From assembly GCA_963662525.1 (NCBI GenBank), contig OY759717.1:915436-979435 (forward strand): a stretch of 64,000 nucleotides of DNA. Reading direction: 5' to 3'. The position numbers were made by a program, and so were the translations under genes. The DNA comes from Bacteroidales bacterium (lineage in GTDB: Bacteria; Bacteroidota; Bacteroidia; Bacteroidales; FEN-979). Below, one piece after another: positions 6,378 through 64,000 of the stretch. The notes under the pieces were generated by a model. That model was not told the origin of the DNA. It did not search any database and saw only the letters and a list, made by a program, of their open reading frames with translations. The first letter of the stretch is position 1, and every line of letters starts with the position of its first letter.

Positions 6378-6573
6378 ATCCAGTATATATAAAAATGATC
6401 ATGATGCAACCCAACAAAGTCAAAGGATATTACGAAGAAGCCTATCCTCCCCTTCCAACCAAAACTACACGGAATCTCCGTAAAAATCTTATTTTCCAGT
6501 TTTACAGATTCATTGTACTTAATTTGAAAATGATGCGGATTATTGTTGGCGGTCATTCATAATTTTTACCCTC

Positions 6574-43479: not shown

Positions 43480-43480
43480 C

Positions 43481-44455: not shown

Positions 44456-44465
44456 TTTCCTTATA

Positions 44466-45461: not shown

Positions 45462-45465
45462 CCGG

Positions 45466-46766: not shown

Positions 46767-48736
46767 TCTTTCCTGATTTTTATATTTGAATTCAGATCCG
46801 TTGAATCGACCAGCAGGTAAGGTTTTTTGTTCAGTATTCCGTCTTTGATCGAGGCATCCACTTTCTGAATAATTTCGGCGGGAATTTTGATCTTCATTTC
46901 TTTCTGAACGTCATAATTAAGGCCAGTAACCTGGTGCTTATACAATTCATAAGGGATTGATGCCGGATTTTCGCCCTTGAGTATGCGATTTACGAGATGT
47001 GCAGCTTGCTGCCCGCTGACATAATACTCATAACCGCAAACCATCAACGGGCCCTTAGAAAAACATCCGGCATCCGTGGCAAAAACGGGTATTTTTTTCC
47101 GGTGTGAAATCCTGATTACCGATTCGATGGCATCTGATACCGTGAGATCATTGATAAGCACAAATGCTTTGATATTTTTTGAAGCCAGCGCTTGGGCTGC
47201 CTGTTGCACATCATGGGTTCCGGAAACCGAAATTTCTTCCAGGATGAATTGCGGAAAGTCCCTCAGGACTCTTTTCAGATCTCCCAGATTCGCTTTGGTA
47301 TTTGGGAAAGCAGGATTATACATGGTGCCAATGCGTTGTTTACCCGGATAGATGAGGGTCATCATTTCAAGCAGTTCCCGGATAGGAGCCGATCCGTATA
47401 TCCCCGTGATATTCGGTGGATGATTGACAGAACTACTACCCACACCGATGATAAACGGGTTGGCAACCGTAGCGAATACGACAGGCTTATCCTTGATTTT
47501 ATTGGCTACAGCCTGGGTTGAAGCCGTTGAAATGGGAATAAAAATATCAACTCCACTGCTGATATACTGGTCAACGATGGTTTTGTTTGTCGGAATATCC
47601 CCTTCGGCATTCTGCTCGAGGATGATGCAACTTTTTCCTTCCACATATCCCAGCTTTTTCATCTCATCACGAAAGCCATCCCGGGTTTTTGTGAGAATGT
47701 CGCTTTCGTTGGCCAGGATCAGACCGATTTTCGGAATTTTCTGTTCTTTTTCCTGTTTGTGATACCATTTATTTCCCATAAATCCCATAAAAATGATAAT
47801 CCCAGCCAGAACAGAAAAGAGAACAGTCTTAGGGTATTTCCTCAGGAAATTAAAAACCGGTCCCTGAAGCCAGGTGGCTTCTGTAAAAGCCCGGGAAAGA
47901 ATAAGAGTAAGCAGAACAAATAATGCGGTAATGATCTTCAGGTCGTTGGGATCGAGTCCGATCATTAATGCCATGGCAACGGCAAGACGAAAGACTACCG
48001 TACCGATGATGACAGAAATGACACAGACAACTACCTTCCTTCCGGGGAACAAAGCCTGTCCGATAATAACGGCAGCCAGACTATAAATAATTGATCCTAT
48101 CCCCATGCCTATGTCGGCAAATCCCTGGTACTGGGCAACCAGCGCTCCCGACATACCCACCAATCCGTTGGAAAAAGAAATCCCGAAAATTTTAATCCGG
48201 TCAACACTTACCCCCTGGGCTGAAACCATGACCGGGTTATTCCCGGTAGCTCGCATTGTAAGGCCAAAATCTGATTTCAGGAAATACGACATCAGCAGCC
48301 AGAAGATGATCATCACAGTAAGGAATAAAACACCGGTCCATAGCTCCGGGTCAATGCCGGGATTGAATTTCTCAAAAACGGAAATCAGGGAAGTATGGTG
48401 CAACAGGGAGATATTGGATTTCCCCATGATGTGAAGGTTAACGGAATACAGTCCGGTCATAACGAGGATGCCTGAAAGCAATCCTTCCACTTTAAATTTG
48501 GTATGAATAATTCCCGTGAAAAAGCCAGCCAGAGCTCCTGCTAAAAACGCAATGGGGATGGTGAGCAAGGGGTTCCATCCATGGACGATCAGGATGGATC
48601 CGACGGCAGCGCCGGTTGTAAAGCTGCCATCAATGGTGATATCGGGAAAAGAATAATATTTATAGGTAATGAAAGTCCCCATGGCCATAAAGGCATAGAG
48701 AAACCCAAGATTCACCGCTCCTATCCAGACTTCCAT
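46763..48736 (-). CDS. ABC permease fused to a C-terminal periplasmic substrate-binding domain (COG4120 + COG2984-like)
   Basis: About 300 aa of polytopic permease, an extra TM (VLFSVLAGIIIFMGFMG), then an SBP-like domain (KIGLILANES...IFIPISTASTQA...). Confidence 0.65.
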   Translation of the reverse strand: MEVWIGAVNLGFLYAFMAMGTFITYKYYSFPDITIDGSFTTGAAVGSILIVHGWNPLLTIPIAFLAGALAGFFTGIIHTKFKVEGLLSGILVMTGLYSVNLHIMGKSNISLLHHTSLISVFEKFNPGIDPELWTGVLFLTVMIIFWLLMSYFLKSDFGLTMRATGNNPVMVSAQGVSVDRIKIFGISFSNGLVGMSGALVAQYQGFADIGMGIGSIIYSLAAVIIGQALFPGRKVVVCVISVIIGTVVFRLAVAMALMIGLDPNDLKIITALFVLLTLILSRAFTEATWLQGPVFNFLRKYPKTVLFSVLAGIIIFMGFMGNKWYHKQEKEQKIPKIGLILANESDILTKTRDGFRDEMKKLGYVEGKSCIILEQNAEGDIPTNKTIVDQYISSGVDIFIPISTASTQAVANKIKDKPVVFATVANPFIIGVGSSSVNHPPNITGIYGSAPIRELLEMMTLIYPGKQRIGTMYNPAFPNTKANLGDLKRVLRDFPQFILEEISVSGTHDVQQAAQALASKNIKAFVLINDLTVSDAIESVIRISHRKKIPVFATDAGCFSKGPLMVCGYEYYVSGQQAAHLVNRILKGENPASIPYELYKHQVTGLNYDVQKEMKIKIPAEIIQKVDASIKDGILNKKPYLLVDSTDLNSNIKIRKE

Positions 48737-49947
48737 CAGTAATTATCGAGATTCATAACTCCAATAAATCCACTTTTGATTTTTGATTCTGGTAATGTAT
48801 GAATAACTTTCTCAACTTCAAATTCCCGGCAAACACGATCAAGCTCTGAACTGAATTCAGAGGGTTTCTGGCTGATCAGCCGGTTATCAAAAATGGCAGA
48901 ATGAAAATGCAGGTCTGCTGCCTCGGGTAAATTCTTTTTAATACTCGGACTTAAAAGATTTCGATCCTTGACCACTAATCCTGCGGCGATGATTGTTTTA
49001 TTAATATCCTCCCCATCCAGTGAAAAGTTCACCCATTGGGTAAAATTATCGTCATCCAGAATACTCCCCTGATCTGGTTCATTTCCATGAATGGGGGATT
49101 TTCTCAGCGACATTCCCAGCATTCCGCCGCTACGGCCAAGCACCACCATGCCAAATAAACCTGATCCGGCAATTTTTGCAGCAGCTTGAGCTAAATTTTC
49201 CAGGGTCGGGATGTCAACACAGGCTTCGAAATGCAGAACAGCTGAAAATTCCCCCTTGAACCCGAATCCATATAAAAAATTCACGGCATGTTGAGAATCA
49301 CTGGTATAATAGGAATAGTCAACAAGTGGTCGCTTAACAGCCGGGAAAGAAAAGAAATGATGGCCGATAACAATTGATTCTCCGAAAAAGTTTTTACTAT
49401 CATCAAAATCATCGCCCAGAACAGCCAGTCCCGTACCAAATTGAATGTTGCCTTGCTGAATTCTGACAACATCCTCCTGTCCATATGCAGAAGTCTGTAA
49501 TTTATCAGCAGAGCCAATCGGAAAACAGGTTCCCCCCTTCCGATCAAAGGTTTGATAAGTAAAATTGATCCCCTGAAATTCAAAGAACGCAGATTTTTCT
49601 TTTTGAACCGAAGGCTGAATAAAATCACGAAGCGAAATTCCATCCTGAAGAATATGCAGGAACTGGTCCATTCCGCTGAGGCGCAAAACTTCATGGACAG
49701 GAGCAGGCACAGAGAGCAATATCAGCCTTCCGCCGATCAGGGCAAGTGATTTATGGGTCTGCAGGATGACCCTGAGTCCGGCACTGCTCATGTAGGTAAC
49801 AGCGGAAAGATTAACAGCAAGGAACCGCTGTCCGTCGGCAGCAGCTTGTTCAAACGCCATTTTAATCTCTGAAGCAGTTAATCCATCAATGCGTCCTTCG
49901 ATGGAAAGGACATCCACATTATCTTGTTTGGCAGAAAAAATTTTCAT
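48736..49947 (-). CDS. STAS-domain (anti-sigma antagonist-like) protein with ~300-aa unknown C-terminal domain
   Basis: VLSIEGRIDGLTASE...LSAVTYMSSAGLRVIL. I recognise nothing in the remainder. Confidence 0.6.
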   Translation of the reverse strand: MKIFSAKQDNVDVLSIEGRIDGLTASEIKMAFEQAAADGQRFLAVNLSAVTYMSSAGLRVILQTHKSLALIGGRLILLSVPAPVHEVLRLSGMDQFLHILQDGISLRDFIQPSVQKEKSAFFEFQGINFTYQTFDRKGGTCFPIGSADKLQTSAYGQEDVVRIQQGNIQFGTGLAVLGDDFDDSKNFFGESIVIGHHFFSFPAVKRPLVDYSYYTSDSQHAVNFLYGFGFKGEFSAVLHFEACVDIPTLENLAQAAAKIAGSGLFGMVVLGRSGGMLGMSLRKSPIHGNEPDQGSILDDDNFTQWVNFSLDGEDINKTIIAAGLVVKDRNLLSPSIKKNLPEAADLHFHSAIFDNRLISQKPSEFSSELDRVCREFEVEKVIHTLPESKIKSGFIGVMNLDNY

Positions 49948-51128
49948 GACTGTCCGGAAAAACGGATTGCCAGTAAGGTTATATCATCAGATTGTGGAAC
50001 TTCAGCTGAAAAGCTGTTCACATCCTGAAGCAGGTCCCTGACAACCTCATCCAGATTCTTGTCGAATGTGGGCTTAAGAAATATTTCAAGACGTTCTTCC
50101 CCAAATGCTTTTTCTGCCTTATTGAATGCCTCAGTTACTCCATCTGTATAAAGAAACAAGGTATCTCCGGGATTCAGGTGGGTCTTTTTTGATTTAAAAG
50201 TAAAATCTTCCATACAGCCCAGGATCGTCCCCCCGGTCATTTCCACCTTGGAAAGTCCGTTCCGGCTTATCGTATAAGGGGCATTATGACCTGCATTCAC
50301 ATAATCCAATTCCCCGGTAAGGGTATTCAGGATACCGTAGAATACGGTAACAAACATGCAGGAAACACTCTCATTGCACAAGAGATTATTAACATAATGC
50401 ATACACTCATCCGGTGGAATACCTTTTAAACCGGTAGCCCTGATCAGGGTCCGGCTGACCGCCATAAAAATAGCAGCAGGCACACCTTTCCCCGAAACAT
50501 CTCCGATAACAAATCCCAGCCGGTCGTTGTCGATCATGAAAAAATCAAAAAAATCGCCTCCCACTTCTTTGGCAGCTACCATGGCTGCATGAATATCGAA
50601 GTCCTTGCGGTTTGGGAAAGGCGGAAAAACTTTCGGCAGGATGGCCTGCTGTATCTCGCGTGCAGTCTGAAGATCGTGTTGTATCGAAATCAGCTGATCA
50701 TGTTCCTCCAGGGAGGTACGGATCTGCAGGATTTCCTCCATAGTCTTGTTGATCGTGATCTCCAGGTCCTCAAAATTGATTGGTTTGGTTAAAAAATCAA
50801 ATGCACCCCGGTTCATGGCTGTACGGATATTATCCATATCACCGTAGGCAGAAACCACTACGGTTTTCAAGCCAGGATTCTTCAGTTCCTTCAGTTTCAG
50901 TAACAAGGTCAGACCATCCATTTCAGGCATGTTGATATCCGACAGGATAATTCCGATCTCGGGAAATTCGATAAGACGGGTTAGTGCTTCAAGCCCATTA
51001 TGAGCAAACACAAAATCATAAACACCATCGCGTATCTGACGGCGGAATTTCTGGCGGATCAAAGGTTCGAGGTCGATTTCATCATCGACAACCATGATTT
51101 TAATGCTGGAGGTGTTGAGTTCGGACAT
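49944..51128 (-). CDS. Response regulator receiver fused to PP2C/SpoIIE phosphatase (RsbU-like)
   Basis: REC domain (MVVDDE...LSDINMPEMDG) and PP2C domain (GGDFFDF...GDVSGKGVPAA...DDITLL). Confidence 0.85.
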   Translation of the reverse strand: MSELNTSSIKIMVVDDEIDLEPLIRQKFRRQIRDGVYDFVFAHNGLEALTRLIEFPEIGIILSDINMPEMDGLTLLLKLKELKNPGLKTVVVSAYGDMDNIRTAMNRGAFDFLTKPINFEDLEITINKTMEEILQIRTSLEEHDQLISIQHDLQTAREIQQAILPKVFPPFPNRKDFDIHAAMVAAKEVGGDFFDFFMIDNDRLGFVIGDVSGKGVPAAIFMAVSRTLIRATGLKGIPPDECMHYVNNLLCNESVSCMFVTVFYGILNTLTGELDYVNAGHNAPYTISRNGLSKVEMTGGTILGCMEDFTFKSKKTHLNPGDTLFLYTDGVTEAFNKAEKAFGEERLEIFLKPTFDKNLDEVVRDLLQDVNSFSAEVPQSDDITLLAIRFSGQS

Positions 51129-51166
51129 ATATTACAGATTTAAACAGTAAAATAGTAAAATCATTT

Positions 51167-52027: not shown

Positions 52028-52143
52028 GTGAGTAAGCTTTGTGTAAAATTATGCTATTTCATTAAAGTTCCATAAAAATATTAAGATTTTTGAATCATAT
52101 TTGTTTAAATTTGGTTGAAATAAAACCTCTTTATTGACAACCC

Positions 52144-55100
52144 ATGACATCGTCGAGCTTTCACGTTAACCCTTTTCCTGGCATACGAAGCTATGAGATT
52201 GAAGAAGATGAATTGTTTTTTGGCAGGGAATTACAGGTAAAGGAATTGATTGACAAATTATCCATAACCCGTTTTCTGGCAATTGTCGGGTCTTCAGGTT
52301 GTGGAAAATCTTCCCTTATCAAAGCCGGTTTGATTCCGTCATTGCTAAAAAACAAGTCGGAAAGAATACAGAACAAATGGCGTCTTTCGATTTTCAAACC
52401 CGGAGATGATCCCCTGAAAAACCTTGCCCATTCTCTGGCTGACGGCTCACATCCGGCTGAACCCATTGCCGATATGCTAAAATCCGGGCCGGATGGCCTG
52501 ATTAAAATATTAAAACAGCAAAATAACGGGGTATCACATCTGATCATCATTGACCAGTTTGAAGAACTTTTCCGGTTTAAGAAAACCCGTGCCAGCACTC
52601 AGAATTTTGCAGAAGCCTCTCAATTTGTTGACCTTTTCACCCATACCATAAAACAAAAAGAGGTTCCTGTATATGTGGTGCTGTCGATGCGCACCGACTT
52701 TCTCGATGATTGTACGGAATACCGGGATCTCAGTGAAATCATCAACCAGGGGTATTATCTGGTCCCCCGCATGAAATCAGAAGAACGGAGAATGGCTATC
52801 ACAGGTCCCATTCAGGTAAAAGGAGGATCGATAAGTGAAGATCTTGTGGAACGTTTACTGGATGAAGTTGGAGACGATCCTGATCAGTTACCGATTCTGC
52901 AGCATGCTCTTATGCGTACCTGGGATTACTGGTCCCTGAACCGAATCGGAGAGCAGCCGATATCAATGGTCCACTATGAAGCGATCGGAACCATGAAAGA
53001 AGCGCTCTCTGTGCACCTGGAAGAAATTTACAATGAACTCAGGGATCAGTCGGGCAAATTCCTGGCTGAGAAATTATTCAAGGCACTGACAGATGTTGGG
53101 ACGGACAGCCGAGGCACCAGACGGCCGACTCAACTCCGGGAAATCTGTACGCTTGCTGATGCGAAAACTGAGGAAATGGTGAGGATCATTGACAGCTTCC
53201 GGGAACCAGGAAGGGCTTTCCTGATGCCTCCGGGGCAGGTAGAACTGGATACCGGGACAACAGTCGATATTTCTCATGAAAGCATTATGAGGGTTTGGGT
53301 AAGACTAAGGAAATGGGTCGAAGAAGAAAGCCGGTCAGCCCAATTGTACCTCAGGTTATCAAAATCCGCAGAACTCTACCAGGAAGGGAAAACAGGGCTC
53401 TGGGTCAACCCGGAACTCCAGCTTGCCTTACAATGGAAGGAGCAGAATAAACCCAATGCCACCTGGGCCATGCGTTATGATCCGGCCTTCGACAGGGCGA
53501 TGACCTTCCTGGATTACAGCAAGAAACAACACGATCTGGAAATTTCACGAAAAGAAAATCAACAAAAAAGAAACCTTAAACGGGCCCGGAATTTCGCCGT
53601 CATCCTGGGTGTGGCCTCGGTCATCTCCATCCTTTTCCTGATCATCTCCCTCAATCTTCGTTTCAAGGCTGAAGCCAGCAGAAAAGAAGCGCTGGAAAAA
53701 CAGAAGCTGGCTGTGGCAGCCAGCAAACGTACTGAAGAACAACGCAAAGAAGCCATTTTACAAAAACGCATTTCCAATCAGCAGCAGGAAATTGCAGAGC
53801 AGCAAAAGCTGATTACGGAACAGCAACGCCAATATGCGGTGAAACAGCAGGAGATTGCCCAACAGCAAACCAAGGTGGCCATTACCGAAAGACAAAAAGC
53901 AGATGTTGCTACCGGAGAAGCGTTGGAAGCCAGAGATGAAGCTCAGGTTCAACGGCAGGAGGCCGTCACCCAAAAACAGATTGCCGACAATGAAAGGGTA
54001 AAAGCAGAAGAATCTGAAAAAAACACTCAGCGACTCAGGTTGCTTTCTGTTGCACGAACGATGGCTATCCAGGCGATACAGTTTTCAGGCACACTGAAAG
54101 ACGATCTGCCTGCATTACTTGCCCTTCAAGCATATCAATTCAACCTGGAAAATCAGGGAAGGGTCAATGATCCGGATATCTATGCAGCTCTTTCTGTTAT
54201 CCTGAATGATCAAACGATCCTGCGCGAACATGAGGATGGCGTCCGTGCCATCGCACTTTCAAAAGATGGAAAAATCCTGGTCTCCTGTGGGGACGATGGT
54301 AATATTTTTCAATGGCAGACAGGAAATCCGGCCGCAGAACCGATATCCCTTAAACTTCCAAAATCAAATCATGAAAATTTCCGTTCAGTTATTATCACTA
54401 CGGATCAGAAATACATTGTTGCCGGAACTTTCAGCGGAAAACTGTTCATCTGGAATTATACCAATTCCCAGGCAATACCAATCATTGTCCAGGCACATAC
54501 TGCCGCTATTAATGATCTTACCTCCAACCCTTCCAAGAAACAATTTGCCAGTTGCGGTTCCGATGGGAAGATATTCCTCTGGAATTATGAAAATGATAAA
54601 TTCTATAAAAACCTGATCGACTCTGTGAAAACAAAAGTCAATGCCATTGCCATTGACCCCGGGGGGAAATTTCTGGTTTCCGGAAGTTCAGATGGTAAAT
54701 TGAACCTTTTTGACCTGCAATTAAAAAACAGAAACATTCAAAACATATATTCCTCGGCTGATCCAGTTTTGTCGATTGCCCTTAGTAATGATGGGAAATT
54801 ACTGGCAGCGGGATTTTCAAGCGGGTCTGTCCGGATCTGGAATACGGCTGACTTCTCCGGATCGCTCATGGAAATGATCGGCCGGCATTCCAGCGGTGTA
54901 ACTGCCCTGGCATTCAACGGGAATGGGAACTACCTTGCCTCATCCGGCTATGACCGTACGATAAAAATAAGCAACATTCAATCACGGGAAGGCAAGCCTG
55001 TTTCTATTGAAAAACATGATCTCTGGGTTTATGACATTACTTTTTCCCCCGACGACAAGTACCTGTTTTCCTGCAGTGCCGATAAAACTATACGGATTTT

Positions 55101-55230
55101 TTCGACCGAATGTTCAGGTATGACAGTAAAACTGAGTAAGACAATCAAACGGAATATGACGCCTGAAGAATGGAATAAATATATCGGATCAGATATTCCT
55201 TATGAAAGGACCAGGCCGGATCTTCCTTAA
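52144..55230 (+). CDS. STAND-type P-loop NTPase - TM helix - Gln-rich coiled coil - WD40 propeller protein
   Basis: FFGRE...AIVGSSGCGKSSL Walker A, LIIIDQFEELF Walker B, TM helix FAVILGVASVISILFLIISL, a QQQEIAEQQ coil, and about 7 WD repeats (e.g. SCGDDGNIFQW, SGYDRTIKI). Confidence 0.8.
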   Translation: MTSSSFHVNPFPGIRSYEIEEDELFFGRELQVKELIDKLSITRFLAIVGSSGCGKSSLIKAGLIPSLLKNKSERIQNKWRLSIFKPGDDPLKNLAHSLADGSHPAEPIADMLKSGPDGLIKILKQQNNGVSHLIIIDQFEELFRFKKTRASTQNFAEASQFVDLFTHTIKQKEVPVYVVLSMRTDFLDDCTEYRDLSEIINQGYYLVPRMKSEERRMAITGPIQVKGGSISEDLVERLLDEVGDDPDQLPILQHALMRTWDYWSLNRIGEQPISMVHYEAIGTMKEALSVHLEEIYNELRDQSGKFLAEKLFKALTDVGTDSRGTRRPTQLREICTLADAKTEEMVRIIDSFREPGRAFLMPPGQVELDTGTTVDISHESIMRVWVRLRKWVEEESRSAQLYLRLSKSAELYQEGKTGLWVNPELQLALQWKEQNKPNATWAMRYDPAFDRAMTFLDYSKKQHDLEISRKENQQKRNLKRARNFAVILGVASVISILFLIISLNLRFKAEASRKEALEKQKLAVAASKRTEEQRKEAILQKRISNQQQEIAEQQKLITEQQRQYAVKQQEIAQQQTKVAITERQKADVATGEALEARDEAQVQRQEAVTQKQIADNERVKAEESEKNTQRLRLLSVARTMAIQAIQFSGTLKDDLPALLALQAYQFNLENQGRVNDPDIYAALSVILNDQTILREHEDGVRAIALSKDGKILVSCGDDGNIFQWQTGNPAAEPISLKLPKSNHENFRSVIITTDQKYIVAGTFSGKLFIWNYTNSQAIPIIVQAHTAAINDLTSNPSKKQFASCGSDGKIFLWNYENDKFYKNLIDSVKTKVNAIAIDPGGKFLVSGSSDGKLNLFDLQLKNRNIQNIYSSADPVLSIALSNDGKLLAAGFSSGSVRIWNTADFSGSLMEMIGRHSSGVTALAFNGNGNYLASSGYDRTIKISNIQSREGKPVSIEKHDLWVYDITFSPDDKYLFSCSADKTIRIFSTECSGMTVKLSKTIKRNMTPEEWNKYIGSDIPYERTRPDLP

Positions 55231-55267
55231 TTAATTATGTTCATGGCAAAATTGAACAGATAAAAAA

Positions 55268-57874
55268 ATGGTTATGCTTAAACGATACTTACCGCTTGTA
55301 TTTATCTCCCTCTTCGCGGGACTGAGTCTTTCGGGAATTATTTTACCATTGCAGGCCAGAGCGCAGGCATGCAGCGATGTAACCCTGAATGACTCCAGGA
55401 AGTTTTATGAAAACGGAAAGTTTAATGATGTCATCAGATCCCTTGAATCATGTATCGACAGAGGGTTCAATGAAAAACAAAAAGTGGAAGCTTACCGCTT
55501 GTTAGCCATGACCTACATTGCCCTGGATTCTATTGACCTGGCCACCATACATACCGGATTTCTGCTTCAGATCAATCCAACCTATGAAGCCAACCTCTTC
55601 GATCCTCCGGCATTTATTAAAATGGTCAATACCATGAAGCTGGCCGGTGGAACCCAGGTGGTCACATCTGTTTCAAAGAAAGCAGAATCTATTTATGAAG
55701 CTCCTGCCACCATCGTTGTTATTACCCGGGAAGACATTAAAAAACGGGGTTATAACGACCTCGTTGAATTGCTGAAAGATGTTCCCGGCTTTGACCTTAC
55801 CTTGTTCTATGGTCCTGAATATGCCAATGTTTACCAGCGGGGATTCCGTCAGAACAATACCGAAAAAACCTTATTGCTGTTTGATGGTATCGAGGAAAAT
55901 GACTTGTGGACAAACTGGGCATACATCGACAGGCAATATCCCTTGAGCAATATTGAAAGGGTGGAAATCATTTACGGACCGGCATCCACCATGTATGGTC
56001 CCAATGCCTTTGCCGGGGTCATCAACGTGATCATGCAGAATTCTGTGGATGCCATCAAACCCGGAAGGAGTATTGGTATCAGCGCCAATGCAAATATCGG
56101 AACGTATAAAACCGGAACGGTCGATCTCAGCATTTCAGGGAAAAGACGGAATATGTCATTCACGGTAACCGGGAGACTTTATCATTCCGACGAAATGGAC
56201 CTTTCCAGTCAGAAATATTTTGATTACAATCCGGATGTCTATAACAGTGTGGATTATAATAAGCTGCTCGACATTAATTCAGGTGCAAAGCAATACCTCA
56301 TCGACAACAAGCTTCCTTTCTCCAATCCCTATTACAGCCTTTCAGCCGATTCCAGCCAGCTTACCCTGACGCCATTAGGTGCCGAAACTGCTAGAAACCT
56401 CGATAAATCCGCCTATGATCAGGTTGTAAAAGGACATCTGATCGGGTTTACCAATCCTACAAACAGCTGGCTTGTCAATGCGAAAGTCAAGATCGGTGGC
56501 TTTACAGTCGGATTTCAGACCTGGAGATATAGCCGTGGTGGAACTACACAGTACACAGACACATACGTAGCCGGCTCCGACAACGGATTTAACTGGATTC
56601 CACAGCTGACTTACTTTTTTGCAAAATATGAAAATCAGATCAGTGAAAAAGTTTTCTTTTCCAACCTTACGACCTATCGTATCCATGCCGTGACCGATGA
56701 AACAAGCTTTGTTTCCGTTTCCAATTATGCTCGCGGAAATAAAAATCTCACCGACCTTGTTGCCAACAAAGCCCCCGACTGGATCACCTTGTATATGTAT
56801 GAACTTTCAAAACAGCTTCGTACAGAATTCAAGGTCATTTATCGGCCGGTATCAAGATTTGACCTGGTATCCGGTCTTGAAATAAGGAACAGTACACTTC
56901 AGGGAGCTTATTATACCAGCCTTACCCCTACCCCCCAGGATTCCGCGGTAATCCTTCCTTCTCCCAAAGGCGGGAATGAGTTTAATGTATGGGATCTCGG
57001 GGTTTATACACAGGGAACTTTCCAGGCATTCCGAAAATTAAAGATCACCCTGGGACTTCGTTACGATTTTAACCGGGTACGCGACAATGATGGCTTCGGT
57101 AACGAACTAAGTCCGCGTGTTGCCCTGGTTTATTCTCCCGGAAAATTCACCTTCAAAGCCATCTACTCCAGGGGGATCATGAATGTCTCGAACTGGACAA
57201 AATACTCCGCGGCAGGAAACCGGATTCCCAATCCCAGCCTGAAAACGGAAAACATGCAGAACTTCGAGATCAGTGCAGGATTCCGCCTGAACAAGGCATT
57301 TCATGCCGACATTACCATTTACCGCGACTACATCTACAATGTGGTCGGAACAGTAAAAGTTGACGGCAGTTCAGGCAAAGTCCAGAATCAGAATATCGGA
57401 AAATTCGAGATCACCGGAATAATGGCAAATGCCGTTTACCAGATCGAATCATTTTCCGCGTATTTCAATTACACCTTTTGCGATCCCAAACAAACTTATT
57501 CAGAAGCTGGTGATGTTGACAACCGGGTGGGAGATATTTCCAGTCACCAGTTTAACCTAGGTGCGGATAAAGTCTTTTTCAACCAGCTGGATGTGAACCT
57601 TCGGCTTAATTTCGTTGGTAACCGTCCTACAGGAGAAGGAACCACGGTTCCGCTAAATACCGATGTTTTTCCAACCACAGCCATTTTGAACGGCGCCATC
57701 AGCTATTCCAATAAAAAGATCGTCCCCGGACTTGCCCTTCAGCTGGTTTGCAATAATATTTTAGATACGAAGTATTTTGACCCGGGCACCAAAGCTGCCG
57801 ACGGCGTCAACAGTCCCACGGCAATCTTACAAAGAGGAAGGCATTTCCTTCTTAAACTATCATATGATCTCTAA
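55268..57874 (+). CDS. TonB-dependent-receptor-like outer membrane protein with N-terminal TPR-like module
   Basis: Signal peptide and plug domain (IYEAPATIVVITREDIKKRGYNDLVELLKDVPGF, VEIIYGPASTMYGPNAFAGVINV), followed by a long beta-barrel. Confidence 0.7.
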   Translation: MVMLKRYLPLVFISLFAGLSLSGIILPLQARAQACSDVTLNDSRKFYENGKFNDVIRSLESCIDRGFNEKQKVEAYRLLAMTYIALDSIDLATIHTGFLLQINPTYEANLFDPPAFIKMVNTMKLAGGTQVVTSVSKKAESIYEAPATIVVITREDIKKRGYNDLVELLKDVPGFDLTLFYGPEYANVYQRGFRQNNTEKTLLLFDGIEENDLWTNWAYIDRQYPLSNIERVEIIYGPASTMYGPNAFAGVINVIMQNSVDAIKPGRSIGISANANIGTYKTGTVDLSISGKRRNMSFTVTGRLYHSDEMDLSSQKYFDYNPDVYNSVDYNKLLDINSGAKQYLIDNKLPFSNPYYSLSADSSQLTLTPLGAETARNLDKSAYDQVVKGHLIGFTNPTNSWLVNAKVKIGGFTVGFQTWRYSRGGTTQYTDTYVAGSDNGFNWIPQLTYFFAKYENQISEKVFFSNLTTYRIHAVTDETSFVSVSNYARGNKNLTDLVANKAPDWITLYMYELSKQLRTEFKVIYRPVSRFDLVSGLEIRNSTLQGAYYTSLTPTPQDSAVILPSPKGGNEFNVWDLGVYTQGTFQAFRKLKITLGLRYDFNRVRDNDGFGNELSPRVALVYSPGKFTFKAIYSRGIMNVSNWTKYSAAGNRIPNPSLKTENMQNFEISAGFRLNKAFHADITIYRDYIYNVVGTVKVDGSSGKVQNQNIGKFEITGIMANAVYQIESFSAYFNYTFCDPKQTYSEAGDVDNRVGDISSHQFNLGADKVFFNQLDVNLRLNFVGNRPTGEGTTVPLNTDVFPTTAILNGAISYSNKKIVPGLALQLVCNNILDTKYFDPGTKAADGVNSPTAILQRGRHFLLKLSYDL

Positions 57875-57881
57875 TTGAACT

Positions 57882-58766
57882 ATGGGTATGACTACATACA
57901 GAAAAATTATCGACGATGCATCACTCTGGGGAGAATTATACGAACCCCTCAAGCCTAAAACGGATCAGGGAAAAGGGTTAAGGGTTGTTTTATTTACCAG
58001 TTGTAATTGCGGCAATACCGTAATTAAAAACCTGTCTCTTTTCGAACAAAAGTATCCCAGCTTATTGAATTTAGTCGGTGCTGCAACGGATGAACCTGTG
58101 GATCCAAAGGCCAGAATATCGCTGAAACAGCGGATTTGGAGCCAATTTACCCCGGAGCAAAGGGTGAAACTCAAGAATAAAATCATTGAATCCAGCATGG
58201 AAGCGGGTATTCCATGTTATACCGGAGCGGTAAAAACGGAGTATTTCCGGAATCTCTATAAAATCTGGAATCCGGATGTGCTGATCATGTTTTGCTTCGG
58301 ACAAAAACTGGATTCCTTTCTGTTCCAATTTCCTGCCATGGGCGCCTATAATTTTCATCCTTCCGATCTTCCCAAACAAATCGGTGCAGGAACCCAGCCC
58401 TTCCAGAATGCCATCAGGAATGGATTAAAAACCTCCCCTATGGTCATCCATCAGGTCACTGAACTGATCGATATGGGTCCCATCGTCGGGGTTTCCACCC
58501 CGATTAACATCTGCCTTGCTGATGGCAGTTATCCGAAAAACCTGATCACCTTGCTTGAAAAAACAACCAGCATCGGCGGATGGATGAGCATTCAATTGAT
58601 TGCTGAGATCAATCAATGCCTGTCAAAAGGGAAACGCACCCCATTAGACTGGATTGACTTCGAAAAAGAGTTTCCTGACAATATCAAACGATTCCTGATG
58701 TCGCCTGCTATCAATGATCCGGATGAGATGTATAAGGTCCCGCTTCATCCTTTACTGTTAAAATGA
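57882..58766 (+). CDS. Formyltransferase-fold enzyme (Fmt/PurN-like catalytic N-H-D retained)
   Basis: PDVLIMFCFGQKL...GAYNFHPSDLP...TQPFQNAI...QVTELIDMGPIVG parallels the Fmt pattern pDl.vv.ayg.il...iNvHaSLLP...lDtG. Confidence 0.5.
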   Translation: MGMTTYRKIIDDASLWGELYEPLKPKTDQGKGLRVVLFTSCNCGNTVIKNLSLFEQKYPSLLNLVGAATDEPVDPKARISLKQRIWSQFTPEQRVKLKNKIIESSMEAGIPCYTGAVKTEYFRNLYKIWNPDVLIMFCFGQKLDSFLFQFPAMGAYNFHPSDLPKQIGAGTQPFQNAIRNGLKTSPMVIHQVTELIDMGPIVGVSTPINICLADGSYPKNLITLLEKTTSIGGWMSIQLIAEINQCLSKGKRTPLDWIDFEKEFPDNIKRFLMSPAINDPDEMYKVPLHPLLLK

Positions 58767-61681
58767 ATGATGCCTTTATGAAAAAGAGAGACTGGCTGAC
58801 AAAAATATTGAATATCCGTGGTGAGGAATTCAAGCCTGTATTCCTGCTGATGCTTTTTTCATTCTTTATCGGTCTCTCTCTTTCATTCTATTTTACAGCG
58901 TCCAATGCCATTTTCCTGAAGCATTTTCCTCCCAAAATGATTCCCGTTTCCTTCATTGCCTCGGGGATTATTGTTTGTTTAGCCTGGTGGATTTTTTCCC
59001 TTATTGATAAAAAGCTGAGTTTTTTCCATCAGGTCGCCTTAAAATTTCTCTTTGTTTTCACCACAGTCCTCGCGATTAGCCTGGGAGTATGGGCATTCGA
59101 CACTCCCTGGCTGGCATTTGTCATGTACACCTGGGTAAGAGTAATGGTATATATTACCCTGGTGAATTTCTGGGGCATGGCAGGAAAGCTTTTCAATATC
59201 CGCCAGGGAAAAAGGATTTTCGGACTCATCAGCGTAGGTGAAGTTATTTCGATCATTATCGGGTATTTCTCTATTCCCCTGATCCTTCAGTTCCTGAAAG
59301 CACCTGACTTATTATTCCTGGCTTCCTTTTCTCTTTTCATCTGCCTGATCATGGTATTCCTTATTTTCAGAACTTTCGGCGACCAGCTCCAGGCGGCTAA
59401 AATACCGACAGCTCAATCCAGAACCACGGTTAAATCAGAATGGAACTACCTGAACCTGCTGAAAAAACCATATTTCCTGTTGATTTCTCTGATGGCTTTG
59501 TTGCCCATTTTCGGATATCTATTTATTGATTTCCTTTTCCTGGCCCAGACCAAAAGGGAGTTTGTGAACAACCCTGAAACCATTGCCAGTTTCTTCGGGA
59601 TTTTTCTGGGTATAGTCGCCATCGTCGAGCTGATATTCAAACTGTTTTCAGGAAGACTTCTCGATAAATATGGGCTGAAACCCAGCCTGGTTTCTTTGCC
59701 TTTTATCCTTGCTTTCAGTGTATTGCTGGCAGCGGTTTTCGGCAGCCTGTACGGCCCCACCGGACTTTTCTTTGCATTCATCGCCCTGGCCCGGTTATTT
59801 GAAAGGTCAGTGAGAGGTGCGGTATATGAACCTGCTTTCCAGTTACTCTACCAGCCTGTTCCCAACGAACAACGACTTGCCTTCCAGAATCAGATCGAAG
59901 GAATTCCCAAAGCGCTTGGAACTGTCGTTACAGGAGTAGTCATCCTGTTGCTTTCGGCTTTCTCCGCATTTAACCTGGTGCATTTTAACTATTTCTTCCT
60001 GATCATCCTGGGTATTTGGATATGGCTTGCCTTTAAAATGTATGATGAATACAGAAACCTGCTCAAGGTTAAGATCAGTGAAATCAAACATGCCATCCTG
60101 AAACCTGATGAATCGGACATGGCCATCATCAGAAAATCGTTGAACCAGGTGTCACCGGAAAAATTTCAAAGAATGGTTGAAGTGTTTGAAAAAGTGGCTC
60201 CCGCTTCTGTTGACGAGGCCATGGACAAATCTTTCCCCGATACTCCTGATGCCATCCGGCTTAAAATACAGGAGAAAAGAGAACAAAGCCAGAAGGAGAT
60301 CAGGGAAGCAGAAGATTATCCTTTCGAGTTCCTCGTTCATCTGGCTCATTCTGCAGATCCTGAAACGCGTGAACAGGCAGCAAGGTTACTGGGATATTCA
60401 GGAAGATATAACACCTATAAAATTCTTATCCAATTACTGAAAGATCCGGCGGCCAAAGTTAAAAAAGCGGCGCTGATCTCATCCGGAAGGATCAGACGAT
60501 ATGAACTCTGGCCTATCCTGATGGAACACCTGACATCTCCTGATTATGGTAATATCGCCTCCATCGCGGTTAAGATGATCGGGGCCCCGATACTAAATGA
60601 ACTCGATCATCATTTTGATAAAATCGCCGATCATAAGCTGGCCCAGATACGGATCATCAGAATCTATGAATCAGTCGGCGGGGAAAAAGCAGTTAAACTA
60701 CTGAGAAATAAAATCAGTTACCCTGATATGGATGTCCGGAACCAGGTCATGCTTTCCCTGAGCAATCTTGAATACCATGCCTCTATTTCTGAAACGCCTT
60801 TTATCCAACAGAACATCGAAGAAACCGCAGAAACAATAGTATGGATCATGGCAGCACTAATGGATATTGGCGGATCACAGGAAACGCTCATCCTCCAGAA
60901 CGCCTTGCTGCAGGAGATGGAAGAGAAAAAAGAAAACATCTTCCTGCTGCTTTCTTTGCTTTATGAAGCAAGGACGATCAGTCATATCCGCGAAACCATC
61001 GAAAGCCAGGACACCAAGGCCCGGATATATGCCCTGGAGATCTGTGATATGACTTTTTCCGATGAGATCAAAGATCTCTTCCTTCCCCTTTTTGAGGATA
61101 TTTCCATCCCGGAACGACTGCACCGTTTCCGTTATCGTTTTCCCCAAACCAGCCTCAACCTTCACGAAAGATTATACGAGATCATTAACAAGGATTTTAC
61201 AAAAATTAACCGTTGGACGAAAGCTTGCGCCATTTACCTTCTCGGTCAACAGGAAATTCAAATGGAAGATGGCACCAGTACCATGCTGGCAGCCCATATG
61301 GTAAACCCGGATCTGCTGATTGCAGAAATTGCCGGATGGATGTTGTATTGCCGGGATAAAAAATATTATTATAATACCCTGGCAAGGTTTGAAAAAAAAG
61401 AAATTCCTGGCATAAAAATGATTATAAATAAAATAAAAATTCGGGAAAAGAACCCTGGAACCCTGCTGTATGAAAAAATCCTTGGGTTGAAAGAACAAGC
61501 TTTATTTGCACCAGTTCCCGAAGTGAATCTGGTAACCCTGGCCATCAACCTCCGGGATCAGGATCATACAAGCATCCCCGATGACGTTTTGTTTGATTTT
61601 ATGACCGGCGACCTGAATTTGACCGAACGATACCTCAACCTCAGCGTTACTGAACATGTTAAAAAGAAGGACTATGTATAA
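58763..61681 (+). CDS. MFS/TLC(Npt)-like transporter fused to HEAT-repeat domain and truncated cNMP-like end
   Basis: About 12 TM helices in the first ~430 aa. These are followed by ARM/HEAT-like repeats (ETREQAARLLGYSG, AKVKKAALISSGRI, MDVRNQVMLSL). The protein ends in a YEKILGLKEQALFAPVP segment. Confidence 0.55.
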   Translation: MNDAFMKKRDWLTKILNIRGEEFKPVFLLMLFSFFIGLSLSFYFTASNAIFLKHFPPKMIPVSFIASGIIVCLAWWIFSLIDKKLSFFHQVALKFLFVFTTVLAISLGVWAFDTPWLAFVMYTWVRVMVYITLVNFWGMAGKLFNIRQGKRIFGLISVGEVISIIIGYFSIPLILQFLKAPDLLFLASFSLFICLIMVFLIFRTFGDQLQAAKIPTAQSRTTVKSEWNYLNLLKKPYFLLISLMALLPIFGYLFIDFLFLAQTKREFVNNPETIASFFGIFLGIVAIVELIFKLFSGRLLDKYGLKPSLVSLPFILAFSVLLAAVFGSLYGPTGLFFAFIALARLFERSVRGAVYEPAFQLLYQPVPNEQRLAFQNQIEGIPKALGTVVTGVVILLLSAFSAFNLVHFNYFFLIILGIWIWLAFKMYDEYRNLLKVKISEIKHAILKPDESDMAIIRKSLNQVSPEKFQRMVEVFEKVAPASVDEAMDKSFPDTPDAIRLKIQEKREQSQKEIREAEDYPFEFLVHLAHSADPETREQAARLLGYSGRYNTYKILIQLLKDPAAKVKKAALISSGRIRRYELWPILMEHLTSPDYGNIASIAVKMIGAPILNELDHHFDKIADHKLAQIRIIRIYESVGGEKAVKLLRNKISYPDMDVRNQVMLSLSNLEYHASISETPFIQQNIEETAETIVWIMAALMDIGGSQETLILQNALLQEMEEKKENIFLLLSLLYEARTISHIRETIESQDTKARIYALEICDMTFSDEIKDLFLPLFEDISIPERLHRFRYRFPQTSLNLHERLYEIINKDFTKINRWTKACAIYLLGQQEIQMEDGTSTMLAAHMVNPDLLIAEIAGWMLYCRDKKYYYNTLARFEKKEIPGIKMIINKIKIREKNPGTLLYEKILGLKEQALFAPVPEVNLVTLAINLRDQDHTSIPDDVLFDFMTGDLNLTERYLNLSVTEHVKKKDYV

Positions 61682-64000
61682 ATCTGTTTTATTCTTTCTT
61701 TGCTTACTCTGGCTTGTCAACATTAAGGCTCATGCCATTGACCGCCTGGAAAACGGAAATCCCTACCTGAAAAATTTCACTGCCCGCGAATATAAAGCCC
61801 ATGCCCAGAATTTTGCTATTGTAACCGACAAGAAAGGGATCATGTATTTTGGGAATTTCGCCGGAGTACTCCAGTTTGACGGGATAAACTGGCGGCTTAT
61901 CACCACCGAAAAAATAACTAAAGTGTCCTCTTTGTCCATCGACAGCAATGGAACCATTTTCGTCGGGGCCAGGGGCGAGATCGGATACATCTCTATCCTG
62001 GCTGATGGTGAAATGGTTTTTCAGTCACTAATATCTCCCGGTTCCAAAATAAATACTCAATTTCAGGAAGTCAGAAATACTTGTTGCACCCCCCGGGGAA
62101 CTTATTTTATTACTGCTCATGAGCTTCTTATCTGGAATAACCATAAACTTGATTCATGGCATTCAGAAACAGAAATTCTGGCAGGTTTTTATCTGAACCA
62201 CCGGTTTTATCTCCAGATGAAAGAAACCGGATTGGCTGAATTCGAAAATTATAAACTCATCCCGGTCAAAGGAGGAGAAGCATTATCTGGAGCCATCGAG
62301 ATAAAATCTATGCTGCCGTATAAGAATGAAGAGATCTTGATAGCCACGGGAACCCAGGGATTGTATCTCCTGGCAAATAACAGTGTCTCGGATATCAATA
62401 CCCGGGCGGATGAACTTTTTCATCAGAAGATCATCACTTCAGCCACCCGGCTTTCCAATGGCAACTTTGCCTTTGGAACAACACGGGAAGGCATTATTAT
62501 CATGTATCCTGACGGAAATATCTGTCAGATCATTGACAAAAATGCCGGATTATCCAACGATTACATTCAGTACCTGTTTGCCGATCAGCACAATCACCTT
62601 TGGGCTGCGTTGAATAACGGCATCTCCATGATAGAAATACCCTCCCATCTCTCCTATTTTGATGAATCTTCCGGATTAACCGCCGGAGTGACCCAAATTG
62701 AGCGGGTTCAAGGGAACCTCGTGGTTTCCACTTACCAGGGTCTGTATTTCTATGATGAGAAACTCGCGGGATTCAAGCCCGCACCAGGTATTATTACTGC
62801 CTGTTGGGCCATACTTCCATTTGAAAATGAATTACTGGCTGCCACCACCCAGGGACTTTTCACGGTCTGGAATCAGCAGCCACGCCTGATCAGTGACGGG
62901 TTCTGCCTTTCCATGACTGAATCAGCTGCCGATCCGGCTGCCGTTTATGTTGGACAAACAGATGGGTTATTCCGCCTGAAAAAAAACGGGATCCGCTGGG
63001 AATCTAATAAAATATCAGGCTTATCCGGTGAAATACGCGATCTCCATGAGGATTTAAAAGGAAACATCTGGGGCAATAGTTTATTATCGGGTTTGTTCCG
63101 TTATTCTCCATCTTTCAGGAAAACTGACTTCTTCAACCAGTCATCTGGCCTGCCCGAATCCGGTAGCAACAGCCTAAACTTCATCGATGGCAATGTGATC
63201 AATGCCACACGCGACGGGATCTTTATTTTCGATCAACAGGCATCCGTTTTCAAACCCTATAACTTCCTGGTTCAGGATAGCGCTACAGCCAACCCCTGGT
63301 TCACTTCCTTAGTCCAGGATGAGCAACGCAATATATGGACTACTGCAGGAGATGAGACTGAAATCACCCTTTATAAAAAAAATCAAAAATCCTGGGAGGC
63401 AATACAAATTCCATTTTTACCTATTGAAGAAGTTGTCGTCTGGACAATCTATCCTGAACCGCATGGATTGATCTGGTTTGGTGGTCCTGATGGACTGATC
63501 TGCTATGATCCGGAAATCCCTTTACTCAATCAAACCATTTCGCCTGCCCTGATACGGAAAGTTACTGTAAATAACGATTCCCTGATTTTTGCCGGAAATA
63601 TTCCCCTGGGAAAGGACAGCCTGATCATGAGGAATACAATTCTCCGTTACCAGGATAACAGCATCCGCTTTGAATTTTCCGTTCCTTATTATACAGCAAG
63701 AGGAGATATTGAATTCCAGTACAAACTGGAAGGCTTCGAGGAAACCTGGTCGGGTTGGTCAACCCAGAGCCACAAGGAATACACCAACTTACCGAAAGGG
63801 AATTTCGTCTTTCGTGTGAAAGCCAGGAATGTTTATGGCACCATTAGCGAAGAAGCAACTTTCAAACTCAGGATTCTCTCCCCCTGGTATTCAGAATGGT
63901 GGGCTTACCTGTTTTATATCATGATGGCCGGAGGTATTGTGTACCTATTTGTTTTGCTGAGAAACCGACAGCTCCTGAAAGAAAAAAAAGAACTGGAACA
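61674..64000 (+). CDS. Two-component sensor with beta-propeller (Reg_prop) repeats and Y_Y_Y domain, 3' end outside window
   Basis: Hand translation gives MYKSVLFFLCLLWLVNIKAHA (signal peptide), with the frame open to the window end. It finishes ...FEFSVPYYTARGDIEFQYKLEGFEETWSGW...LSPWYSEWWAYLFYIMMAGGIVYLF (Y_Y_Y plus TM). It is absent from the ORF track because no stop lies in the window. Confidence 0.75.
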   Translation, partial: MYKSVLFFLCLLWLVNIKAHAIDRLENGNPYLKNFTAREYKAHAQNFAIVTDKKGIMYFGNFAGVLQFDGINWRLITTEKITKVSSLSIDSNGTIFVGARGEIGYISILADGEMVFQSLISPGSKINTQFQEVRNTCCTPRGTYFITAHELLIWNNHKLDSWHSETEILAGFYLNHRFYLQMKETGLAEFENYKLIPVKGGEALSGAIEIKSMLPYKNEEILIATGTQGLYLLANNSVSDINTRADELFHQKIITSATRLSNGNFAFGTTREGIIIMYPDGNICQIIDKNAGLSNDYIQYLFADQHNHLWAALNNGISMIEIPSHLSYFDESSGLTAGVTQIERVQGNLVVSTYQGLYFYDEKLAGFKPAPGIITACWAILPFENELLAATTQGLFTVWNQQPRLISDGFCLSMTESAADPAAVYVGQTDGLFRLKKNGIRWESNKISGLSGEIRDLHEDLKGNIWGNSLLSGLFRYSPSFRKTDFFNQSSGLPESGSNSLNFIDGNVINATRDGIFIFDQQASVFKPYNFLVQDSATANPWFTSLVQDEQRNIWTTAGDETEITLYKKNQKSWEAIQIPFLPIEEVVVWTIYPEPHGLIWFGGPDGLICYDPEIPLLNQTISPALIRKVTVNNDSLIFAGNIPLGKDSLIMRNTILRYQDNSIRFEFSVPYYTARGDIEFQYKLEGFEETWSGWSTQSHKEYTNLPKGNFVFRVKARNVYGTISEEATFKLRILSPWYSEWWAYLFYIMMAGGIVYLFVLLRNRQLLKEKKELE

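What the first reader, a model, noticed from the sequence alone, without database searches (positions are those of the whole stretch)
55268..64000. Tightly packed operon downstream of the STAND protein: OM barrel, formyltransferase-fold enzyme, transporter-HEAT fusion, Y_Y_Y sensor
- **Spacing.** The junctions are a 37-nt gap, a 7-nt gap, a 4-nt overlap and an 8-nt overlap, running from 55230 to 61674. This implies co-translation.
- **Components.** First, a TonB-receptor-like barrel with an N-terminal TPR-like module. Second, a 294-aa protein keeping the Fmt/PurN catalytic Asn-His-Asp pattern (YNFHPSDLP, IDMGP). Third, a 972-aa MFS/TLC-like carrier fused to HEAT repeats with a truncated cNMP-like end. 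Fourth, a propeller/Y_Y_Y sensor that is cut by the window edge.
- **Why it matters.** An uptake route across both membranes plus a formyl or acyl transfer step under a dedicated sensor does not match any pathway I know.
Basis: inference. Interest (0 to 1): 0.6.

Follow-up and report, generated by a model that had tools for sequence, protein, structure and literature searches.

The report
Envelope-spanning signalling operon with swappable core
A conserved gene cluster in uncultivated Bacteroidota links an outer-membrane receptor, a small-molecule acyltransferase, a transporter and two membrane-spanning sensors, and related species swap the parts that would touch the small molecule as one block, which suggests an undescribed make-release-and-sense signalling system.

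Summary
The genes, spacings and motifs are as described. The unit is larger than the finding: STAND NTPase with periplasmic stalk and WD40, TPR-capped TonB receptor, formyltransferase (N157/H159/D197 invariant in 53 homologues), NTT-family carrier with HEAT repeats, propeller/GAF histidine kinase, and a porin-like gene, beside a kinase/phosphatase/STAS switch. In Bacteroidales the order is almost fixed (36 of 36 receptor-picked loci; one genome lacks the enzyme). In other Bacteroidota the enzyme slot holds unrelated GNAT acyltransferases. Receptor barrel, enzyme and carrier membrane domain move between species as one recombination tract, while the sensing parts stay; silent sites show this in relatives, protein trees in this copy. 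A complex model supports WD40-TPR binding (0.66, best control 0.00). The carrier has lost at least one key ATP/ADP residue, and the cNMP end cannot fold a binding pocket. Best reading (about 0.45): the cell acylates a small amine, exports it and senses it, with specificity types like agr. Ligand, transport direction and output are unknown. No paper was found. This scan saw the system before on other genomes; the swapped cassette did not appear in the notes I could read.

The parts
52144..55230 (+). nSTAND1 NTPase (aa 10-415), one TM helix (aa 485-503), heptad coiled-coil stalk (about aa 506-640), WD40 propeller (about aa 690-995); first gene of the unit
   Evidence: Pfam; hydropathy; Walker A/B invariant in 43 homologues; stalk 135 aa in 28 of 43, otherwise 142, 143 or 149
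55268..57874 (+). TonB-dependent receptor: signal peptide, TPR-like helical cap (aa 31-127), TonB-box-like strand (aa 130-137), plug (aa 143-251), barrel
   Evidence: most conserved gene of the block (mean pairwise identity 73%)
55358..55648 (+). TPR-like periplasmic cap, predicted docking site for the STAND WD40 propeller
   Evidence: complex model score 0.66, best control 0.00, runs agree in at least 91% of contacts, partner pLDDT at least 85
57882..58766 (+). Formyltransferase-fold enzyme of a distinct Bacteroidales family; cytoplasmic; triad N157, H159, D197; likely start at the second ATG (292 aa)
   Evidence: PF00551; alignment; AlphaFold pLDDT 94.8 with Fmt/ArnA/PurN fold; the genome has separate, stronger PF00551 genes of PurN and Fmt size
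58763..61681 (+). NTT (TLC/AAA-family) carrier domain (aa 20-443, 12 helices), HEAT repeats (about aa 450-896), cNMP-binding-domain remnant (aa 901-972)
61463..61681 (+). Truncated cNMP-binding-like tail: helices only, beta-roll deleted
   Evidence: 72 aa vs 124-132 aa in long relatives; all-helical in the model; family profile hits KCNH CNBHD weakly (E 0.004)
61674..64000 (+). Sensor histidine kinase, 1246 aa in full, running 1414 nt past the window: propeller, Y_Y_Y, TM, coil, GAF, HisKA (His1002 intact), HATPase; no receiver or AraC domain. Followed outside the window by a 202-217 aa porin-like gene and a Zn-dependent dehydrogenase
   Evidence: L001 ORFs and Pfam; GAF by profile; His motif; porin-like by ESM Atlas features only
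56348..60022 (+). Exchangeable cassette: receptor barrel (from about aa 360), enzyme, carrier membrane domain (to about aa 420). Limits are projected from relatives; in this copy the downstream limit looks earlier (about aa 200-300)
   Evidence: silent-site profiles; AU tests; sliding identity
51167..52027 (-). Small soluble histidine kinase without sensor, about 50% identical to the kinase domain of the large sensor; divergent unit
49944..51128 (-). Receiver plus SpoIIE/PP2C phosphatase; likely output of the kinases
   Evidence: linked to the block in Bacteroidales and distant families
48736..49947 (-). STAS (anti-anti-sigma-type) domain fused to an unknown 300-aa domain
45954..48736 (-). ABC permease/binding-protein fusion (TrpX-like, below cut-off) and ATPase; frequent but not universal companion

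Best explanation
A trans-envelope signalling circuit built around one small, self-made N-acylated molecule. (1, inferred) The cytoplasmic enzyme N-formylates a small amine; in other lineages a GNAT acylates it. (2, inferred) The NTT-derived carrier moves it across the inner membrane, and a small porin may let it out. (3, inferred) The TonB-type receptor binds or recaptures it from outside. (4, model-supported) The receptor's TPR cap is gripped by the WD40 propeller of the STAND protein, whose fixed-length stalk (about 20 nm by 1.5 A per residue) relays the receptor's state to the cytoplasmic NTPase. (5, inferred) The STAND protein and the carrier's HEAT arm control the GAF histidine kinase, which, with the small kinase, phosphorylates the receiver-phosphatase and so sets a STAS partner switch. 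(6, shown in relatives) The parts that would touch the ligand, namely barrel, enzyme and carrier domain, are exchanged between species as a block while the relay parts stay, as expected for specificity types.
For: Conserved order: 36 of 36 receptor-picked metagenome loci with downstream DNA carry the enzyme next. The same scaffold occurs in distant Bacteroidota with GNAT, FeeM-like or PhzF+GNAT genes in the slot, so the conserved need looks like acyl transfer, not one pathway. Cassette: four-fold-site identity 0.71-0.75 inside against 0.29-0.43 outside for several species pairs, with sharp edges at receptor aa about 360 and carrier aa about 420. Cassette and flank trees reject each other's clades: AU p 0.001 for this copy with its flank relatives, p 0.0004 or less for three cassette clades on the flank alignment. 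After removing the backbone signal, barrel and carrier N-half covary with the enzyme (partial r 0.34-0.44) while kinase, HEAT and STAND do not (-0.17 to 0.09). WD40-TPR model 0.66 vs best control 0.00; this mark was reached by 58 of 80 solved complexes and 2 of 110 mismatched pairs. The WD40 side of the interface is more conserved than its domain (p 0.003). One genome keeps receptor and carrier but lacks the enzyme, as a 'listener' would. Single copy, patchy among kin: 31 of 90 family genomes.
Against: No ligand, activity, transport direction or expression data. Linkage alone can carry flanking DNA with a swapped enzyme. An uptake-and-modify system with substrate variants predicts the same co-exchange. 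The clear silent-site cases involve one related group of species and are not independent. In this window's copy silent sites are saturated, so the swap rests on protein trees. The permutation p-values ignore kinship. The TPR side of the interface is not more conserved than its domain (p 0.51). Links from STAND or HEAT to the kinase are untested. A formyl group gives little room for specificity unless the acceptor varies. The enzyme-less genome is a 93%-complete assembly and a single case.
Confidence: 0.45

Rival explanations
1. Uptake and modification. The receptor and carrier import an environmental amine, nucleoside or cofactor fragment, the enzyme acylates or deformylates it for use, and the sensors report its presence. 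Cassette swaps change the substrate.
For: TonB receptors and NTT carriers are importers where characterised (established knowledge; PMC5381601). A TonB-box-like strand is near invariant and the genome has three TonB genes. An ABC importer and a Zn dehydrogenase often flank the block.
Against: No catabolic genes are conserved across clades. Unrelated acyltransferases replace one another. About 7 kb of dedicated STAND and kinase, plus a partner switch, and no transcription factor is unlike nutrient loci. One genome drops the enzyme but keeps both transporters.
Confidence: 0.27
2. Conflict or detoxification. The receptor and carrier admit, or are hijacked by, a competitor's toxic amine; the acyltransferase inactivates it and the sensors raise a stress response through the partner switch.
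For: N-acylation by GNATs is a common resistance chemistry (established knowledge). Cassette turnover, patchy presence and a STAND protein fit biological conflict. A TIR-domain gene precedes the STAND gene in one distant locus.
Against: It does not explain why the entry route is kept and co-exchanged with the enzyme. The receptor is the most conserved gene, unlike a toxin target. No PADLOC system model fits.
Confidence: 0.12
3. Private metallophore. The slot enzyme formylates or acylates a hydroxylamine to make a hydroxamate; receptor, enzyme and exporter co-vary like pyoverdine types.
For: Formyltransferases and GNATs are the two alternative hydroxamate-capping enzymes (established knowledge). 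The nearest solved receptors bind siderophores, B12 or haem, but mostly through the plug.
Against: No IucA/IucC synthetase and no NRPS condensation domain in the 98%-complete genome; only one weak, partial Lys/Orn oxygenase match of a kind that rings in 12 of 14 control genomes.
Confidence: 0.1
4. Chance neighbours, or an ATP/ADP translocase or antiviral STAND locus with passengers.
For: NTT fold; nSTAND1 domain.
Against: Order conserved across several Bacteroidota families. The NTT residue E245 aligns with an invariant Arg. The STAND protein has no effector domain and no Avs model match.
Confidence: 0.04

Closest known systems
TonB-dependent cell-surface signalling (FecA-FecR-FecI; own knowledge)
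   Same: An outer-membrane receptor with an N-terminal periplasmic domain contacts an inner-membrane-anchored regulator.
   Different: The cap is TPR-like, not STN. The partner is a STAND NTPase with a coiled-coil stalk and WD40, not an anti-sigma factor. The apparent output is a kinase-phosphatase-STAS switch.
Staphylococcal agr quorum sensing (hypervariable agrB-D-C specificity groups, PMC13610699)
   Same: Signal maker, exporter and receptor parts vary together as one internal cassette within a conserved operon.
   Different: No peptide; none of the proteins matched Agr families. In agr the kinase sensor domain is in the cassette; here the kinase propeller does not covary with the enzyme, and the outer-membrane barrel does.
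NTT-HEAT(-cNBD) fusion carriers (Major et al. 2017, PMC5381601)
   Same: Same domain architecture, found in Bacteroidetes among others; the C-terminal cNBD is described there as labile; function unknown.
   Different: The passages I read give no operon context beyond an adjacent cNBD gene. Here the cNBD is reduced to helices and AtNTT1 E245 is replaced by an invariant Arg.
UhpC-UhpB (MFS co-sensor of a histidine kinase, PMC9306846)
   Same: An MFS-fold carrier next to a kinase could act as the ligand receptor for it.
   Different: Different MFS family, long HEAT arm, and no DNA-binding regulator.
Fmt / ArnA / PurN / WbkC N10-formyl-THF transferases
   Same: Fold and catalytic Asn-His-Asp.
   Different: About 14-21% identity in the top structural matches, TM about 0.5; far below the NCBIfam cut-offs; own N-terminal extension and invariant D70, R84, W86, K118; SLLP reads SDLP.
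Bacteroides PULs with hybrid two-component systems (own knowledge)
   Same: TonB receptor plus propeller/Y_Y_Y sensor.
   Different: No SusD, no glycoside hydrolases, no receiver or AraC on the kinase.

Membership tests
N10-formyl-THF transferase family (PF00551) | Fold and Asn/His/Asp triad | tested here: met
N10-formyl-THF transferase family (PF00551) | Formyl transfer activity and acceptor | not testable with these tools
   needs an assay
Fmt, PurN, PurU or ArnA equivalogs | NCBIfam cut-off | tested here: not met
   best 52 bits vs 201.5 for Fmt; separate stronger PF00551 genes in the genome
NTT-HEAT(-cNBD) fusions | NTT/TLC membrane domain followed by HEAT repeats | tested here: met
   family profile matches only the two NTT1 structures (E 1e-14, 3e-12); Foldseek ranks 1-4 are NTT1. 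The window protein alone does not reach PF03219; one relative does
NTT-HEAT(-cNBD) fusions | Complete cyclic-nucleotide-binding domain | tested here: not met
   72-aa helical remnant
ATP/ADP translocases (AtNTT1 type) | K155, E245, E385, K527 | tested here: not met
   E245 aligns with invariant R126; E385 with D256 (kept acidic); K527 with T387 or, in another register, K383; K155 lies outside the aligned stretch and was not tested
TonB-dependent transducers (FecA type) | STN signalling domain on the receptor | tested here: not met
   Pfam finds plug and barrel only
TonB-dependent transducers (FecA type) | Adjacent ECF sigma and anti-sigma genes | tested here: not met
   none among the genes annotated from 42.2 kb to the dehydrogenase past the window; not searched genome-wide
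PUL with hybrid two-component system | SusD after the receptor; receiver and AraC on the sensor | tested here: not met
Avs / antiviral STAND | Effector domain and defence-system profile | tested here: not met
   protein starts with the NTPase; only two weak P-loop-level PADLOC hits
agr-like quorum sensing (works-like) | Co-varying internal specificity cassette | tested here: met
agr-like quorum sensing (works-like) | Diffusible self-made signal and density-dependent output | not testable with these tools
   needs culture or reconstitution
Hydroxamate siderophore cluster | N-hydroxylase and NIS or NRPS synthetase | tested here: not met
RsbU/RsbV/RsbW partner switch | PP2C phosphatase, STAS protein and anti-sigma kinase | tested here: inconclusive
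   phosphatase and STAS adjacent; an RsbW-like gene is adjacent in family f42 by my reading of its sequence; here only a distant 148-aa candidate

The most novel reading that the evidence does not exclude
A new class of bacterial cell-cell signalling. A self-made N-formylated or N-acylated small molecule is exported by a repurposed nucleotide carrier and read at the outer membrane by a TonB-type receptor wired directly to a membrane-anchored STAND NTPase, with recombining specificity types and enzyme-less eavesdroppers.
Probability: 0.3. Interest if true: 0.9.

Novelty: categorically new. Interest (0 to 1): 0.72.

Why it matters
If true, it gives environmental Bacteroidota a communication system of a kind not described, and shows a STAND NTPase working as a trans-envelope transducer rather than an immune receptor. 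It also gives a first testable role to the widespread, uncharacterised NTT-HEAT carriers. The cassette names the parts that set specificity, so chimeras and ligand hunts can be designed directly. Family f42 includes near-complete 6-8 Mb assemblies; if strains are cultured, they would be the practical models. Even on the uptake reading, the STAND-receptor link has no precedent in the papers I could search.

Tried and rejected
Promoter and terminator scan: counts within shuffle range (27 vs 21.8 +/- 4.6; 19 vs 13.7 +/- 3.5), so no use. Expression: no RNA holder listed, which is no evidence either way. Three low-share metagenome runs gave only short fragments. Literature: four searches found no paper combining a STAND NTPase with a TonB receptor in this context; most subscription papers are not searched. 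A search for the NTT1 structure paper found nothing. One clade test was mis-specified (L024+L066+L028+L084 is not a clade in the flank tree) and was redone with L024+L066+L028; the 'carrier C-part' segment also rejected that clade because it starts at aa 331, inside the tract. For this copy, the carrier N-half and receptor N-half alone do not reject its flank clade (p 0.35, 0.36). Locus L072 seemed to lack the enzyme; this was an ORF-calling artefact of my script. Formyltransferase relatives at 37-43% identity mostly stand alone, next to DUF3147, MFS or membrane genes, and gave no substrate clue. Pfam and NCBIfam gave nothing for the porin-like gene or the 283-aa lipoprotein. The complex tool failed five times before running. 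Trees used the quick method without mixture models; near-duplicate and incomplete loci were left out (29 rows kept). Docking was not possible.

Full report
OBSERVATION. The four ORFs and their junctions are as stated: 37-nt gap after the STAND gene, 7-nt gap, 4-nt overlap, and 8-nt overlap if the kinase starts at 61674. Such packing is ordinary in this window, since the divergent unit at 45954-51128 is packed the same way. The sequence is not an assembly artefact: contigs from an independent study bridge two of the junctions with 4-5 differences. The genome is one 3.55-Mb contig, 98% complete, and its relatives are uncultivated Bacteroidales.

ANATOMY. The STAND gene (52144-55230) encodes an nSTAND1 NTPase with no effector domain, one TM helix, a coiled coil and a WD40 propeller. 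The stalk is 135 aa in 28 of 43 homologues and 142, 143 or 149 aa in the rest, mostly whole heptads longer, as a periplasmic ruler would be (the ruler is inference). The receptor has a signal peptide, a TPR-like cap, a near-invariant TonB-box-like strand, plug and barrel, with no STN domain and no SusD after it. The 294-aa enzyme folds like Fmt/ArnA/PurN (pLDDT 94.8, TM about 0.5), keeps N157/H159/D197 in all 53 aligned homologues, and is additional to the genome's stronger PF00551 genes. The 972-aa protein is an NTT-family carrier with HEAT repeats: its membrane-domain profile matches only the two NTT1 structures in the PDB, and the model ranks them first. This architecture was described by Major et al. 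2017 as widespread and of unknown function (PMC5381601). Of the residues needed for ATP transport in AtNTT1 (PMC10654386), E245 aligns with an invariant Arg, E385 with Asp, and K527 ambiguously; K155 was outside the aligned stretch. The cNMP-like tail is a helical remnant without the beta-roll. The sensor, completed from the genome, is 1246 aa: propeller, Y_Y_Y, TM, GAF, HisKA, HATPase, with no receiver or DNA-binding domain. After it come a porin-like gene (a feature-based lead only) and a Zn dehydrogenase. Divergently lie a sensor-less kinase, a receiver-SpoIIE phosphatase, a STAS fusion and an ABC transporter.

CONSERVATION. Every locus whose enzyme is 46% or more identical lies in the block as far as the contig reaches. 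Picking loci by the receptor instead, 36 of 36 metagenome loci with downstream DNA have the enzyme next, as do 18 of 19 family genomes, some overlapping the earlier set. The exception, G014, joins receptor to carrier with a 38-nt gap and has no orthologue in its 93%-complete assembly. The receptor occurs once in this genome, in 31 of 90 family genomes and in 5 of 401 phylum genomes searched. In family f42 (22 of 121 genomes) the scaffold is STAND, receptor, slot, carrier, kinase, small kinase, phosphatase, preceded by STAS and an RsbW-like gene, and the slot holds a 195-aa GNAT with FeeM-like hits or a different 237-aa GNAT. Other lineages have a 280-aa GNAT or PhzF plus GNAT. In f42 the large kinase has lost its phospho-acceptor His while the small kinase keeps it; in Bacteroidales both keep it. 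This ties the two kinases together functionally (inference).

THE CASSETTE. This copy is 76-77% identical to same-genus copies in carrier and kinase but only 51% in the enzyme, while more distant copies reach 70-74% in the enzyme. Sliding identity shows the switch spanning the barrel, the enzyme and the start of the carrier. Across 29 loci, barrel and carrier N-half covary with the enzyme after removing the backbone signal, and STAND, HEAT and all kinase segments do not (p-values there ignore kinship). Trees of cassette and flanks reject each other's clades. Silent sites show real DNA exchange in relatives: for L024/L044, four-fold-site identity is 0.74 inside against 0.33 outside, with edges at receptor aa about 360 and carrier aa about 420; L044/L064, L044/L127, L044/L128 and L024/L127 behave alike, and L028 shows the reverse pattern against its flank relatives. 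Identities near 0.7 argue against assembly chimeras. In this window's copy silent sites are saturated, so its exchange is older and rests on protein trees. The tract covers the three parts expected to touch a small molecule. Hitch-hiking with the enzyme is not excluded, although the barrel segment nearest the enzyme covaries least (0.16).

RECEPTOR-STAND LINK. A complex of WD40 (aa 660-1028) with the TPR cap (aa 31-130) scored 0.66 against a best control of 0.00; the runs agree in at least 91% of contacts and partner pLDDT is at least 85. The mark was reached by 58 of 80 solved complexes and 2 of 110 mismatched pairs, and the counts hold only roughly because my own alignments were used. This supports binding and does not show it. 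The WD40 contact residues are more conserved than the domain (0.65 vs 0.49, p 0.003); the TPR ones are not.

MECHANISM. Shown: gene content, order, triad, folds, slot replacement, cassette exchange in relatives. Model-supported: STAND-receptor contact. Inferred: that the enzyme makes the ligand, that the carrier exports it or acts as a UhpC-like co-sensor (PMC9306846), that STAND and HEAT control the kinase, and that the output is a partner switch. I put about 0.8 on an envelope-spanning sensing device centred on one small acylated molecule, and about 0.45 on the specific make-export-sense reading. Uptake and modification (0.27), detoxification (0.12) and a metallophore (0.10; no NIS or NRPS in the genome) remain.

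COMPARISON. It works like a TonB transducer in geometry and like agr in its variable core (PMC13610699), but fails the defining tests for FecA-type transducers, PULs, Avs systems, ATP/ADP translocases and siderophore clusters. Each part belongs to a known family; the assembly matched no paper in the searchable library. Earlier notes of this scan describe the same system on other genomes. They are unchecked AI notes and not independent support. I took from them the leads on the stalk-receptor contact and the 'make and sense' wording and tested what I could.

VERDICT. Real, conserved, undescribed as a system as far as I could search, function unproven. Interest 0.72.

Noticed in passing
window 42208-45957 (+): Lysine 2,3-aminomutase-like radical SAM gene, two D-Ala-D-Ala-ligase-like ATP-grasp genes and a GNAT converge on the ABC/partner-switch unit. 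The GNAT, and in L037 and L122 also a ligase, lie next to the unit in several relatives. A beta-lysine or small peptide from them is a candidate acceptor for the formyltransferase (speculative).
   Followed up: partly
window 48736-49947 (-): STAS domain fused to a 300-aa domain with no Pfam or NCBIfam match, conserved at 42-61% in relatives.
   Followed up: no
window 46763-48736 (-): ABC permease fused to a TrpX-like binding protein; 948-aa versions in L063 and L084; a different ABC set in L042/L065.
   Followed up: no
L001:4843-5451 and 5490-6437: Porin-like gene (KdgM/DUF6733-like by features) and Zn dehydrogenase directly after the kinase in most Bacteroidales copies; absent from the f42 loci.
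   Followed up: partly
L001:12552-13400: 283-aa lipoprotein of no known family; follows the dehydrogenase in many relatives but sits 6 kb further on here, before a TM/ABC-G-like protein.
   Followed up: partly
L056, L100-L117 (family f42): The large kinase has Asp-Arg in place of the His-Glu phospho-acceptor motif in all 11 aligned members, so it is a probable pseudokinase paired with the small kinase. An alpha-amylase/isoamylase-like gene precedes the STAS gene in L056.
   Followed up: partly
L053:16038-19567: TIR-domain and TrkA_N/RyR-domain genes directly upstream of the STAND gene; the slot holds PhzF plus GNAT and no kinase follows the carrier.
   Followed up: no
L055:13509-15167: The STAND homologue is a 552-aa protein matching only the stalk and WD40 part, without the NTPase, and no carrier gene lies between GNAT and kinase.
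   Followed up: no
L140 (G014:C219:1-3044): Receptor followed directly by the carrier; no formyltransferase orthologue found in that genome.
   Followed up: yes
L034:9324-10442, L097, L092, L105: Split copies: formyltransferase homologue with an internal stop (L034) or in two ORFs (L097), receptor in two ORFs (L092), STAND in two ORFs (L105). Sequencing error or decay not distinguished.
   Followed up: no
window 48700-62459, run X4: A biofilm metagenome holds two versions of the locus, one near-identical and one about 86-87% identical, suitable for a strain-level test of cassette exchange.
   Followed up: no
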